64,000 bases of DNA from a virus, in IMG/VR virus record IMGVR_UViG_3300025128_000015, positions 96,001-160,000 of that record; one strand, 5' to 3'. Shown here piece after piece: positions 39,369 through 44,306 of the stretch. The notes below the pieces were generated by a model. The model saw only the letters and a list, made by a program, of their open reading frames with translations, was not told the DNA's origin and searched no databases. Within the stretch, counting starts at the first letter, position 1, and every line of letters starts with the position of its first letter. Both the position numbers and the translations under genes were made by a program.

Positions 39369-42300
39369 ATGACAATGAAACATCTACTAGAAAGTTGGAG
39401 ATCTTACGAGCGTAAGGTTTTGACCGAAGAAAAAGAGCCTCTCGACGAGATCTCATATAATTATGCAGAAGAGGTTGAGAACTGGCTAGCTGATAACGGC
39501 GATCAAGTTGCTCTTCCGTTTAATGATCTATTTGACGATAAACTTCGTAAAGTTATTCCTTTAGGAAAGGCGATTGCGCCTAATTCTGAAATTGCATCTT
39601 TAATCAATTGGTTTAAAAGAAATGGCTATGAGCTTGATTTTAAAACCGGCTTGGCATCAAAAGAAGTTGAAGATCGCCAAGGAAATAAAAGATTAAAGCA
39701 GATGAAACCTGGCAAATTATTAGCTCAGGCTCAAAAATATCTCACCAAATATGATAAATTATATGGTGAAATGAATGATATTGTTGTAGGTTTAGGTTAT
39801 AAAGTTGATTATCGCGAACATGAACCCTGGCAAAAGAAAAGAGCAGAAAGAATGGATCATCTAGAAAGGGCAGAGCGGGTTTTTCCTGCAATCTCTCGTG
39901 ATGTGACACAGACTGTACAAAATCATATACAATTTTGGAACAAGAAGTCTCAATTCTATCGTGAAAACCCAGAAAAAGCATTTATAGAATATTCAATTAT
40001 TCTTTCCCGTGCGCCAATCGATGTTTTAAGAATGTCAGATCATAAAAATATTAGGTCATGCCACTCAGAAGGAAGTGATTATTTTAAGTGCGCAAGAGCA
40101 GAAGCGCAAGGACACGGACCAATTGCATATGCTGTTGAAACAAGAGATTTAGAAGATATTGATTTAGATGACGATGAAGTATTTGAAGATCGTGAGAGGG
40201 GAATTGGTGGAATTGAACCTGTTTCTCGTGTACGATTGAGAAGATTTACATCAAGAGAAACAACTTTAGATTTAGCAGTACCAGAGCAAAGAACTTATGG
40301 CACAAGCATTCCCGGCTTTGTAAAGAAAGTAACAGACTGGGCTAGAGAATCACAAAAACCTGTTTGGGAAGATTTCATAGATGAGAATTCTGGAAAAATA
40401 GATCCAGAGTTTCATGGTATGTTTTTTAGAACGGGTGGATCTTATACAGATACATCTTCTTCGTCCTTATTCAATAAAATGTTCGAAGATTATGGAGCAA
40501 GCTTTCATGGATCAGCTCCACACCGAGGAAGTGAAGAAGAATTTGAAGACGGTGGAGACGAATATGAACAAGACTATGAGCGATTCCACGAAGAACTTCG
40601 AGATATAAATGTTGCAATAGATGATGCAGAATATAATGTATCTCGCTTTAGAGATGTCGGACCAACCGGTGAATCAGGATTTCAGTTTAGCGCAGAAATC
40701 GATAACGATGAATGGCAAGAAATGGGCGATGAGGTGAGCGCATATTGGAACGGCTCAATGACTTTTACATTTATAGAAGGCGAAGAAAGCTTGCCATCTC
40801 ATCATAAAGAACAACAGGATATTGCTGACGAAATTCAAAAATTAATAGCGAGTGAAGTACATTTGGGCATAATGGAAACCCAAATCGACGATGTTGGAAA
40901 CACCATAGAAGTAAGAGTGGAATTTGAAACGTACAACGACGGAGTATACTCCATCGCAGAACAAATTCGCTCATTTGTTGAAGATATGGAATCGACTTCC
41001 GAAGAATACAATGATATGAAAGCCATGATATATACCCATCTTGCAAAAAGTGGTTATGTTAATCCAACTGCAGCAGCAACTTTAACTAATAAATTAGCTG
41101 CAGGCGAACTAGAATTCAAACATTTCGAGTTAACTCACGACAACGAAGGACATTATATTACTCTTAAAGTTGACGACGAAGACGAAGCCACAGGAGTTGA
41201 TTTTCCTAAGAGAGTCGACACCTACAGAGCCCCAAAAACAACTGTCGGTCCTATTAGAAATCGCTTGTTAGAATTAATGAGAGAAGGATATGGCGGAGCA
41301 AGAGGATTATCTGCAACATCTAGCAATCGATATGGATTAGTACAATCGAAACAATTCACAAGACAAGTTTTAGATCTGTTAACTCCAGAAATTGCCGCAA
41401 TAGTTAAAGCCAACGCAGATCAACAGAAGCTAGACCTGCAAGAAAACAGCTCTATAACGCCTCAAGCAATAGAAGCCCACCTCTTACAAGGATTTGTCCT
41501 AAAACTGCGTGAAATACAGCGTAGAGAGCCGATGAAGGGACATGGACGAAGGAAGGATGAAGTTCCTGGTAAAACTCCAATATATGTTGACGTAGAAGAA
41601 ATGCATTATTCTTTGGATGATGAAGATGAATTTGAAATAGTCGAACCTATTATTGCTTTCTTTGTTCACTTAGATAAGAATATTGACAAGTTATTTAAGG
41701 CCATTACCGATGTACTTCAAACATTGGATGTTCAATATGGCAATAAAACAGTAGAAGGACAAAGCCAAATTAACGATATCGTACAAATGGCTGATGACGT
41801 AGCTGAATTTGTAAAAGAAAAGACTGGTGGCGGAGTTATATATGGAGACTCCAGAGACGTCTCATCACCAAAAACTTATCGTGAAAAATTACTTCAGGGA
41901 CTAAAAAGAGCAAATTACGTTCTTGCTAAATTAACATCTCCAGGAGATCAATCATATATTTCAATGTTTACAGGTATTGAAACTCAATATCCTTTAAGAA
42001 TGAATGATTCAGAAAGATTCATAAAGATTATTACCATGTTGCAACGCGATCATGCCGAAATGAATATATATTGGAAAAAGTTGACACCAGAAGATCTCGA
42101 CAAGTCTTTAGAGCAAGAAGAAGAACCACATAAACCAGCAGATGATAGAGATGATGGTTGGCAACCAGGAATGCCAGTGACAGAATCGTTGGCTAATAAA
42201 TTAAGAAGTTATTTGGGTGAGCAGAAAAAAATCAAATTAAAAGATGTTCCCCGCGTCAAACACATTCCAAAAGCATCGTATGGACTGCCCGTCAAAGGAA

Positions 42301-44306: not shown

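What the first reader, a model, noticed from the sequence alone, without database searches (positions are those of the whole stretch)
39369..44306. 1645-aa apparent polyprotein whose modules are bounded by DNA direct repeats encoding ESLSEKLTKYLDE
Seen: linkers ESLANKLRSYLGEQ (42183), EESLSEKLTKYLDEN (42552 and 43173; 42 nt identical), ETYKRLRKYLEEQ (43332) and ESLSEKLTRFLDEN at the C-terminus (26-nt identical core at 44258). They delimit unrelated modules of about 50-300 aa; one has an internal YD(E/D)EGY(Y/H)IG duplication and one has RHELGH. Nucleotide identity implies recent duplication or recombination at the linker. Inference: a cassette-accreting polyprotein that is cut into separate effectors at LxE during head maturation.
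Basis: partly seen in the sequence, partly recalled or inferred. Interest (0 to 1): 0.78.

Follow-up and report, generated by a model that had tools for sequence, protein, structure and literature searches.

The report
Swappable cargo cassettes in phage polyprotein
A marine T4-like phage encodes a 1645-residue protein with a conserved body and a tail of interchangeable small basic modules; each module is bounded by one short repeated peptide that ends in the cutting motif of the phage's own head protease, so the protein is probably a plug-in system for loading and releasing capsid cargo, though no cut has been measured.

Summary
ORF 39369-44306 (1645 aa) carries four clear copies and one remnant of a 14-16-aa amphipathic peptide (ESLSEKLTKYLDEN type). 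Two copies are identical over 42 nt.

Relatives from at least nine other metagenome samples keep the ~940-aa acidic core but carry 0, 1, 2 or 4 different C-terminal cassettes. DNA homology stops in the first linker (42215-42230) and resumes in the last (44257-44263).

- **Protease:** the genome encodes a T4 gp21-type prohead protease, which in T4 cuts after L/I-x-E.
- **Motif conservation:** all but one relatives' linker keep Y/F/L-L-x-E, with x variable.
- **Depletion:** cassette interiors hold 2 [LI]xE sites against 9.6 expected (P=0.003).
- **Leader:** the N-terminus is a helical leader followed by a nearly invariant LxE.
- **Virion evidence:** a distant relative of the core (Atu_ph07 gp394) was found in virions by mass spectrometry.
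- **Core fold:** the core belongs to a large unnamed family (864 clusters) with a Cys/His domain of weakly GNAT-like fold.

Packaging and cleavage are inferred, not shown. Cassette exchange at the linker is shown.

This scan has reported similar LxE-jointed cargo polyproteins on other phage genomes. I found no such description in the papers searched here.

Verdict: a real feature and a new variant of the T4 capsid-targeting/internal-protein theme.

The parts
39324..39331 (+). AATAAATA, a T4-type late-promoter-like element 45 nt before the ATG
   Evidence: The same NATAAATA lies 36 nt before the portal gene, 36 nt before the prohead protease gene and 20 nt before the tail sheath gene (identified). 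Only 15 of 263 ORFs have it within 100 nt upstream.
39369..44306 (+). Whole ORF, 1645 aa (P0001)
   Evidence: No Pfam or PHROG family and no tblastn match in cultured phages.
39369..39449 (+). N-terminal leader (aa 1-27). It has a helix at 3-20 of the M-K-x-L-L-E-x-W-R-x-Y type, then a flexible stretch ending in L-D-E27 before I-S. I read it as a candidate capsid-targeting propeptide.
   Evidence: The AF2 model has a helix at 3-20 and pLDDT below 50 at 22-25. E27 is conserved in at least 90% of 90 family members, with consensus LxEIS. The same leader type starts ORFs 15147, 15512, 22101 and 37468.
39450..42178 (+). Conserved acidic core (aa 28-937; the N-terminal 950 aa, leader and first linker included, have pI 4.85)
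   Evidence: Relatives are 74-87% identical here. The N-terminal 620 aa fold with pLDDT 84.9. The family has 864 representative clusters.
39951..40538 (+). Most conserved domain of the core (aa 195-390), with nearly invariant residues including D218, M222, D224, C231, H232, C241, D274, R277 and R287
   Evidence: The AF2 model has pLDDT 90.9. All 50 best VIA rows are GNAT-fold proteins, but Z is at most 4.8. Foldseek against PDB gives nothing at E<=1e-3.
42179..42224 (+). Linker 1 (TESLANKLRSYLGE|Q)
   Evidence: Homology with every relative ends at 42215-42230. A contig of run X10 leaves the window at 42230.
42225..42550 (+). Cassette A (aa ~953-1061; pI ~10 for aa 951-1074, which include linker 2)
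   Evidence: It is 60% identical to an internal part of P0179, a different DUF7178+NUDIX protein that carries the same leader type.
42551..42596 (+). Linker 2 (EESLSEKLTKYLDE|N)
   Evidence: Its helical hydrophobic moment lies in the top 2.4% of shuffles.
42597..43171 (+). Cassette B (aa ~1077-1268), with the internal YD(E/D)EGY(Y/H)IG duplication
   Evidence: Its ends recur in L011, P0181 and P0182. Its middle recurs in P0180, a membrane-anchored protein.
43172..43217 (+). Linker 3, 45/46 nt identical to linker 2
43218..43350 (+). Cassette C (a short lysine-rich module)
   Evidence: It is 79.5% identical in DNA to L013 5677-5852, where it is the last cassette.
43353..43370 (+). Remnant of a linker end (KYLEE|Q)
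   Evidence: It keeps Y-L-x-E but not the rest of the motif.
43371..44254 (+). Cassette D (aa 1335-1629; pI 10.1 for aa 1335-1643, which include the terminal linker), with HELGH at 43662-43676
   Evidence: The protein atlas gives only weak zincin leads: ATLF, Peptidase_M90 and LPD23 at 0.79-0.80. No sequence relatives were found.
44255..44300 (+). Terminal linker (AESLSEKLTRFLDE|NN*). Its last bases contain the ATG (44293) of the next gene.
   Evidence: Homology with relatives resumes at 44257-44263.
44293..44784 (+). Downstream glutaredoxin/thioredoxin-fold gene. Its start overlaps the terminal linker, and it is syntenic in relatives.

Best explanation
P0001 is most likely a capsid-packaged cargo carrier of a T4-type phage.

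**Architecture.** A short N-terminal helical leader is followed by a conserved LxE. Then comes a conserved acidic ~910-aa core of unknown enzymatic or structural role. The C-terminal tail ends in two copies of an amphipathic peptide that itself ends in Y-L-x-E.

**Cassette exchange (shown).** Unrelated, mostly basic cassettes have been inserted between those two copies. Each insertion brings or regenerates a linker copy. Because the linker is also a 40-46-nt DNA repeat, homologous recombination at it adds, removes and swaps cassettes in frame. Close relatives therefore differ only in cassette content.

**Processing (inferred).** During head maturation the phage's gp21-type prohead protease would cut after the Glu of each L-x-E. 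This would remove the leader and separate the core and the cassettes, which then travel with the DNA into the host.

Shown: the modular architecture, the breakpoints at the linkers, the presence of the protease gene, the motif conservation, the depletion of LxE inside cassettes, and the virion location of a distant family member. Inferred: packaging of this protein, cleavage at the linkers, ejection, and any function of the cassettes.
For: 1. **Nine architectures on one conserved core.** Zero cassettes: P0004, L003, L010. One: P0003/L004, P0005, L011, P0007/L014/L016. Two: P0002/L013. Four: this window. There are further cassettes in L008/L009 and P0182.
2. **Breakpoints.** blastn breakpoints fall at 42215-42230 and 44257-44263 in all relatives, with flanks 80-94% identical. 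Cassette C is shared with L013 in another context.
3. **Protease.** The genome has Peptidase_S77 (116.7 bits, E 9e-35; PHROG head maturation protease, E 6e-58) and gp23. T4 gp21 cuts after L/I-X-E, and the T4 capsid targeting sequence (CTS) works as a removable propeptide (PMC9026906; PMC3012670).
4. **Motif conservation.** All 15 distinct relatives' linkers matched by the search pattern keep L-x-E, with x = D, N, G or S. L and E are kept through synonymous changes. The first linker of P0007 (SYLGKEK) is the one exception; it keeps only the upstream L-S-E.
5. **Depletion.** Inside 10 cassettes (1709 aa) there are 2 [LI]xE sites against 9.55 expected (P=0.003). Of the 20 [LI]x[aa] patterns, E is the most depleted (z -2.78), while [LI]xD is not depleted.
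6. **Leader.** Helix 3-20 is followed by low confidence and then LDE27. E27 is at least 90% conserved in the family. The same leader type starts four other ORFs here, one of them a NUDIX hydrolase, and also starts P0179.
7. **Charge.** The core-containing N-terminal 950 aa have pI 4.85 and the cassette segments (each with its trailing linker) pI 8.6-10.1. T4 internal proteins are basic (PMC9026906).
8. **Virion evidence.** The A3 profile and Foldseek link the core to Atu_ph07 gp394. That protein was found in virions with 18 unique peptides and 41% coverage (Suppl. Table S5 of PMC6102473).
9. **Promoter.** The late-promoter-like AATAAATA lies upstream, as it does before the portal, protease and sheath genes.
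Against: - No cleavage product, packaging or ejection has been observed for this protein or for any close relative.
- The terminal linker has no cargo behind it. A cut there would release only two residues, so the motif must do something besides separating modules.
- The specificity of this phage's protease is assumed from T4.
- A profile of the linkers does not retrieve the N-terminal leaders (iE 25). The leader/linker kinship therefore rests on a post-hoc pattern.
- No free-standing gene with leader plus cassette was found.
- KxE is depleted almost as much as [LI]xE. Some cassettes in the depletion test are related to each other.
- The gene lies 100 kb from the head genes.
- The Atu_ph07 relative is very distant (about 16% identity), and that virion preparation was only PEG-purified.
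Confidence: 0.5

Rival explanations
1. The protein is an uncut polyvalent protein. The cassettes are swapped at the linker exactly as described, but the linkers are not protease sites. They would be amphipathic helices that dock the protein or hold it together. In the zero-cassette form, for example, the tail reads helix, K-P, helix, which could act as a helix-turn-helix binding the capsid interior, the scaffold or DNA. The protein would then act as one chain, in the virion or in the cell.
For: The canonical linkers have a high helical hydrophobic moment, in the top 1.6-2.4% of shuffles. The terminal copy has nothing behind it to release. The zero-cassette form has two copies separated only by K-P or V-K-P. 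Polyvalent proteins are thought to act, at least in part, as whole chains (PMC5512222).
Against: This reading does not explain the invariance of L and E with a free middle residue. It also does not explain the specific depletion of [LI]xE inside cassettes, nor why the truncated fourth joint keeps just Y-L-E-E.
Confidence: 0.25
2. The chain is processed, but not by the prohead protease. Cassette D, which carries HELGH, would be a zincin-like metallopeptidase that cuts the chain, as proposed for polyvalent proteins. Alternatively, another protease would do it, such as the neighbouring Trypsin_2 gene at 45784-46536 (-).
For: An HExxH motif lies at aa 1432-1436. The atlas neighbours that have a Pfam family are mostly zincins: ATLF, M90 and LPD23 at 0.79-0.80, with 9 of 10 in one clan. 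Zincin peptidases are the commonest domain of polyvalent proteins and are proposed to process them (PMC5512222). A Trypsin_2 protease gene (E 2.4e-14) is syntenic two genes downstream.
Against: Relatives without cassette D keep the same linkers, so the linkers cannot depend on D. The atlas scores are below the level at which the tool treats them as more than leads. HExxH is expected by chance in about 5% of proteins of this size and composition (my estimate). The Trypsin_2 protein has a lipoprotein-type signal peptide by eye and is probably exported.
Confidence: 0.08
3. The protein is not a virion protein at all. It would be a cytoplasmic phage protein whose variable tail is simply a recombination hot spot, and the LxE ending of the linker is incidental.
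For: The gene sits among metabolic and auxiliary genes (thioredoxin-fold, PhoH, exonuclease and glycosyltransferases), far from the head module. The core has no known fold or function.
Against: T4 ip and alt genes also lie outside the head gene cluster (general knowledge). This reading also runs against the virion detection of Atu_ph07 gp394, the late-promoter-like element, the shared leader ending in LxE and the LxE depletion.
Confidence: 0.12
4. The repeat structure is an assembly artefact, a chimera created at the 42-nt repeat.
For: Short-read unitigs break at the repeats.
Against: Runs from three other samples hold all parts at 100% identity. One contig bridges A, linker and B. The repeat unitig has double depth, and cassette B has the depth of its flanks. 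With two repeat copies the graph allows no other order. Relatives show the same design.
Confidence: 0.01

Closest known systems
Phage T4 internal proteins IPI, IPII, IPIII and Alt: capsid targeting sequence (CTS) plus gp21 processing (PMC9026906; PMC3012670)
   Same: A short N-terminal amphipathic propeptide ends in L/I-x-E. The same genome encodes a gp21-type protease. The cargo is diverse, mostly basic and fast-evolving, and only the tag is conserved. The genes lie outside the head cluster. Alt is cut at both termini.
   Different: The tag-like peptide is repeated inside one reading frame and at the extreme C-terminus. The cargoes are concatenated behind a large conserved acidic core instead of being separate genes. 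The repeat also serves as the recombination site. There is no sequence similarity to T4 IPs or Alt.
Polyvalent proteins of phages and conjugative elements (Iyer, Burroughs, Anand, de Souza, Aravind 2017; PMC5512222)
   Same: One large phage protein strings together unrelated modules. It is proposed to be packaged and delivered with the DNA and to be proteolytically processed. A possible HExxH module is present. Family members are fused to lysozyme, M23, PG-binding and GDSL domains.
   Different: None of the domains described for polyvalent proteins is detected by Pfam here. The modules are bounded by one repeated linker with a head-protease motif, a feature not described in that work (the word 'linker' does not occur in its main text). 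The variation is confined to one slot at the C-terminus.
Prohead-protease-processed ejection/inner-body proteins of giant phages phiKZ and SPN3US (PMC10052503; PMC5694885)
   Same: A gp21-related protease cuts many head proteins after Glu within a three-residue motif. Propeptides can be cut at several sites.
   Different: In those phages the cuts remove propeptides from single proteins. Swappable cassettes separated by a repeated linker are not reported there.
Atu_ph07 gp394 and other uncharacterised jumbo-phage proteins (BFVD hits; PMC6102473)
   Same: They share the core fold (Foldseek E 5.6e-8; profile E 2.7e-6) and parts of the conserved motif (ISRHP.D...MS, SC, VAY, IYG..PGF). The protein is present in virions by MS.
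   Different: The protein has 484 aa, no cassette tail and no linker motif. His232 is not conserved.
PeSL-type modular shuffling in hyperplastic regions of T4-type phages (Arbiol, Comeau, Krisch 2010; cited from memory and from scan note e1-5830627, not read here)
   Same: Short conserved sequences flank cassettes and mediate gain, loss and swap among T4-type phages.
   Different: In PeSL shuffling the repeats are non-coding regulatory elements between whole genes. Here the repeat is coding, in frame and inside one gene.

Membership tests
T4-type CTS-tagged capsid cargo (IPI-III, Alt) | N-terminal short propeptide ending in L/I-x-E | tested here: met
   Helix 3-20 is followed by LDE27. E27 is at least 90% conserved in 90 relatives. 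Sister leaders end in FLNE, YINE, FINE and FMSE. This is a sequence-level test only.
T4-type CTS-tagged capsid cargo (IPI-III, Alt) | gp21-type (Peptidase_S77) prohead protease in the same genome | tested here: met
   PF03420 at 116.7 bits and phrog_207 at E 6e-58.
T4-type CTS-tagged capsid cargo (IPI-III, Alt) | Physical presence in the head and removal of the propeptide | not testable with these tools
   There is only indirect support: a distant family member is found in Atu_ph07 virions.
T4-type CTS-tagged capsid cargo (IPI-III, Alt) | Sequence kinship of the internal linkers with the N-terminal leader (that is, the linker is a CTS copy) | tested here: inconclusive
   The linker HMM does not retrieve the leaders (iE 25). 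A post-hoc 11-residue pattern hits only 3 leaders and 3 linkers in the proteome, with 0 hits in 300 shuffles.
Polyvalent proteins (PMC5512222) | Several unrelated domains in one phage- or plasmid-encoded polypeptide | tested here: met
   Four cassettes have no mutual similarity, apart from one short internal duplication inside cassette B. They recur singly in other proteins.
Polyvalent proteins (PMC5512222) | Presence of hallmark domains (zincin MPTase, LPD domains, ART, MTase and others) | tested here: inconclusive
   Pfam finds nothing at E<=1. HELGH is present, and the atlas leads to zincin families reach only 0.79-0.80.
GNAT acyltransferase superfamily (core domain, aa 195-390) | GNAT fold with an acyl-CoA binding site | tested here: inconclusive
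   All 50 best VIA rows and the best Foldseek rows are GNAT proteins. However, Z is at most 4.8, rmsd is 3-5 A, and Foldseek E is at least 0.05. There is no Pfam hit.

The most novel reading that the evidence does not exclude
One short coding repeat does three jobs at once. As DNA it is the homologous-recombination site that lets wild phages insert, delete and swap cargo cassettes in frame, making a protein-level analogue of an integron slot. As peptide it is the capsid-targeting or docking helix. Its last three residues are the prohead-protease site that frees each cassette. The terminal copy additionally carries the start codon of the next gene. If this holds, one conserved carrier gene lets a phage lineage reshuffle its injected arsenal without touching head assembly.
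Probability: 0.4. Interest if true: 0.8.

Novelty: new variant of a known kind. Interest (0 to 1): 0.62.

Why it matters
Proteins injected with phage DNA act first in an infection, and the known examples (T4 IPI*, Alt, P1 Dar) counter host defences. A carrier with a defined, recombination-prone slot for such cargo would explain how marine T4-like phages renew that arsenal quickly.

It also gives a simple rule for finding unknown injected proteins in metagenomes: look between Y-L-x-E linkers.

It would further offer a natural design for loading several foreign proteins into T4-type capsids from one gene.

The core also belongs to a large unnamed family (864 clusters at 50% identity) that has a confident predicted structure and no assigned function.

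Tried and rejected
- **Family and sequence searches of P0001:** Pfam and PHROGs found nothing. tblastn of the whole protein and of the core domain against 50,697 cultured-phage records found no match. PDB sequence searches of the core and the tail found none.
- **Fold searches:** Foldseek against PDB with the 620-aa model and the 196-aa domain gave nothing at E<=1e-3. VIA wide on the 620-aa model gave a best Z of 6.5, on helical parts only, which is within noise.
- **Atlas search of the core:** only unnamed clusters.
- **Leader/linker kinship:** the linker HMM against the proteome did not retrieve the leaders, so I do not claim homology.
- **Free-standing cassette genes (proteins under 381 aa):** I found only fragments of the same polyproteins and one unrelated membrane protein that shares part of cassette B. 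None had the N-terminal leader.
- **DNA pattern scans:** in IMG/VR only one relative was found. In metagenomes, 7 of 11 hits were true relatives and 4 were chance hits in unrelated genes.
- **Other repeated linkers in the family:** internal-repeat search in 160 family members found none. The linker design is confined to this subclade, while others duplicate the core itself.
- **Read laying:** no joint removes a cassette in the four runs laid. Run X10 (a 90-97% relative) gave almost no cover over cassette B and most of A. Because these are contigs, that is no evidence of absence.
- **The look-up of encoding contigs:** The DNA context of P0002, P0005 and P0007 was therefore obtained only through the metagenome pattern scan.
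- **RsoM2USA:** its virion data, named in a scan note, were not checked.
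Full report
**Where the window lies.** The window is bases 96001-160000 of a 189,594-bp IMG/VR virus record. The genome encodes a T4-type prohead protease (Pfam Peptidase_S77, 116.7 bits; PHROG head maturation protease, E 6e-58). It also encodes a gp23-type major capsid protein, a portal and a tail sheath. It is therefore a T4-like myovirus. Runs holding the stretch are marine or seawater metagenomes.

**The observation.** ORF 39369-44306 (+) encodes 1645 aa.
- The repeat finder gives one family of four 46-nt direct repeats at 42179, 42551, 43172 and 44255. 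The second and third are 45/46 identical.
- In peptide terms these are TESLANKLRSYLGE|Q, EESLSEKLTKYLDE|N (twice) and AESLSEKLTRFLDE|NN-stop.
- In the six-frame translation of the whole genome the pattern occurs in an open frame only in this ORF.
- A profile built from relatives' linkers alone finds the four copies at iE 4.6e-9 to 6.9e-7.
- DNA homology to cassette C of a relative runs to 43350. Only KYLEE|Q is therefore linker-like, and I read it as a truncated linker that kept its Y-L-x-E end.
- The canonical linkers are strongly amphipathic as helices.

**Not an artefact.** Contigs of three runs from other samples and studies (X2, X4, X5) lie on the stretch with no differences. One contig (42147-42775) bridges cassette A, linker 2 and cassette B. 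The exact 42-nt repeat forms its own unitig at about twice the depth of its neighbours, and cassette B has the depth of its flanks. With two repeat copies there is no alternative order.

- A word-indexed search found close relatives of 930-1273 aa that cover only the first 50-65% of the query at 74-87% identity.
- Their sequences, two IMG/VR loci and seven metagenome loci found with a degenerate DNA pattern for the linker show one conserved core followed by different tails.
- No cassette, with two linkers separated only by V-K-P: P0004, L003, L010.
- One cassette of 137-269 aa, in four unrelated kinds: P0003/L004, P0005, L011, and P0007/L014/L016. The last has a weak GDSL hit below Pfam's cut-off.
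- Two cassettes: P0002/L013.
- Four cassettes: this window.
- Further cassettes appear in fragments (L008/L009, P0182, P0181).
- All but one architecture end with ...LSEKLTR(Y/F/L)L(D/N/G)E plus two residues. The exception, P0006, diverges at the same point into an acidic tail.
- blastn shows that homology with every relative stops at 42215-42230 and resumes at 44257-44263. The flanks are 80-94% identical.
- Cassette C is shared with L013 (79.5%) in another position. Cassette A is 60% identical to an internal part of P0179, a different protein with DUF7178 and NUDIX domains.
- The start of A and the end of B recur joined to other middles (P0182, L011).
- Cassette gain, loss and exchange at the linker is thus shown. 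The near-identity of linkers 2 and 3, including synonymous sites, points to recent conversion or duplication.

**Is the linker a protease site?** In T4, gp21 cuts after L/I-X-E. The 10-residue CTS of the internal proteins targets them to the prohead core and is then removed. Alt is cut at both ends. The IPs share nothing but the CTS (PMC9026906; PMC3012670). Four observations here fit that rule.
1. All 15 distinct relatives' linkers matched by the search pattern keep L-x-E at the same register, with x = D, N, G or S. L and E persist through synonymous codon changes (TTG/TTA, GAG/GAA). The first linker of P0007 (SYLGKEK) is the one exception and keeps only the upstream L-S-E.
2. In the C-terminal 695 aa of P0001, all eight [LI]xE sites lie in linkers.
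3. Over 10 cassette interiors (1709 aa) there are 2 such sites against 9.55 expected from shuffles that keep composition (P=0.003). One of the two is the truncated linker. Among the 20 patterns [LI]x[aa], E is the most depleted (z -2.78), and [LI]xD is not depleted (12 against 10.2).
4. The truncated joint kept exactly Y-L-E-E.

There are caveats. Some cassettes are related to each other. KxE is also depleted (z -2.57). The protease's specificity is taken from T4.

**The N-terminus.**
- AlphaFold with 90 relatives gives a confident model of aa 1-620 (pLDDT 84.9, pTM 0.75). Helix 3-20 is followed by the only low-confidence stretch of the N-terminal part (22-25) and then L-D-E27.
- E27 is conserved in at least 90% of the family, with consensus LxEIS.
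- Four other ORFs of this genome start with the same type of leader, M-K-L-L-x-E-N-W-(R/K)-K-(F/Y)-(L/I)-N-E. They are at 15147, 15512, 22101 and 37468.
- ORF 22101 is a NUDIX hydrolase whose domain begins at residue 27.
- P0179 begins the same way.
- This matches the logic of the T4 CTS.
- The last five residues of leader and linker agree: K-(F/Y)-L-(N/D)-E. A post-hoc 11-residue pattern hits only three leaders and three linkers in the proteome. The linker profile, however, does not retrieve the leaders. Kinship of leader and linker therefore remains a resemblance.

**Is the protein in the virion?**
- The core has no Pfam or PHROG family. Even so, 864 representative clusters match it. Some carry lysozyme, Peptidase_M23, PG-binding or GDSL domains.
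- Foldseek against predicted viral structures finds uncharacterised proteins of jumbo phages, among them a 484-aa protein of Agrobacterium phage Atu_ph07 (E 5.6e-8).
- Following a lead from scan note e1-5859692, I checked this myself. The family profile hits MF403008 at 295371-295727 (E 2.7e-6), inside AUZ95153.1 (295047-296501).
- By its length of 1455 nt and its neighbours, that protein is gp394 of the paper's table. Supplementary Table S5 lists gp394 among virion proteins with 18 unique peptides and 41% coverage (PMC6102473).
- Its sequence keeps parts of the family motif.
- An AATAAATA lies 45 nt upstream of the ATG. The same NATAAATA precedes the portal, protease and sheath genes, and only 15 of 263 ORFs have it.
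- The cassette segments are basic (pI 8.6-10.1) and the core-containing N-terminal 950 aa acidic (pI 4.85).
- Together these make packaging likely but not shown.

**What the core is.** The most conserved domain (aa 195-390) has near-invariant D218, M222, D224, C231, H232, C241, D274, R277 and R287. It folds with pLDDT 90.9. Foldseek against PDB finds nothing significant. Its best rows, and all 50 best VIA rows, are GNAT-fold acyltransferases at low scores (Z at most 4.8). I treat a GNAT-like topology as a lead only.

**Cassette D.** It carries HELGH (aa 1432-1436). The atlas gives weak zincin neighbours. Zincin peptidases are the commonest domain of polyvalent proteins and are proposed to process them (PMC5512222). 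Relatives without D keep the linkers, so D cannot be the general processing enzyme.

**The terminal linker.** Its last bases (GG ATG AAA ATA A) contain the start codon of the downstream glutaredoxin/thioredoxin-fold gene, and this is conserved in relatives. That adds a DNA-level constraint on this copy. It may help explain why a copy without cargo persists. It also shows that the motif has roles beyond separating modules.

**Verdict.** The proteolytic half is supported by four independent kinds of indirect evidence but is untested. The closest known systems are the T4 CTS/internal-protein system and the polyvalent proteins. The in-frame repeated linker that serves both as recombination site and as presumptive protease site is the new element. 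The same scan has reported comparable LxE-jointed cargo polyproteins in other uncultured T4-like phages. I did not test those notes. I found no such description in the papers searched here.

Noticed in passing
window 11829, 13460, 14889, 16565, 18127, 19223, 19878 (also genome 15927 and 32349): A second leader family, M-(K/N)-(I/L/V)-T-K-x-x-(L/I)-K-x-I-I-x-E-E..., starts at least seven otherwise different ORFs clustered in 11.8-20 kb of the window. Each leader ends in (L/I/M)-x-E. This looks like a hyperplastic block of tagged proteins.
   Followed up: partly
window 15147-15512, 15512-16513, 22101-22544, 37468-37926: Four ORFs share the P0001-type leader (MKLLxENW(R/K)K(F/Y)(L/I)NE). ORF 22101 is a NUDIX hydrolase with the leader added in front of the domain (Pfam E 9.6e-21). 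The other three have no family.
   Followed up: partly
window 44286-44306: The stop region of the polyprotein overlaps the start of the next gene (ATG 44293, glutaredoxin/thioredoxin fold) within the terminal linker. The overlap is conserved in L003, L004, L011 and L013.
   Followed up: yes
window 45784-46536 (-): A Trypsin_2 serine protease (E 2.4e-14) with an apparent lipoprotein signal peptide lies on the opposite strand. It is syntenic in L003 and L004. Its role is unknown.
   Followed up: partly
window 38163-38597 and 44293-44784: Two thioredoxin-fold genes (both phrog_22) flank the polyprotein gene. ORF 38607-39200 has a weak SLT transglycosylase hit (E 2.5e-4).
   Followed up: no
proteins P0034, P0114, P0138 (family members from other metagenomes): Some members of the core family carry two copies of the conserved Cys/His domain in one chain. 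Others carry LRV/HEAT repeats, lysozyme, M23 or PG-binding domains.
   Followed up: partly
genome 27774, 31684, 42137 and window 39324: NATAAATA lies 20-45 nt upstream of the portal, prohead protease, tail sheath and polyprotein genes. It is a candidate late promoter of this phage.
   Followed up: partly
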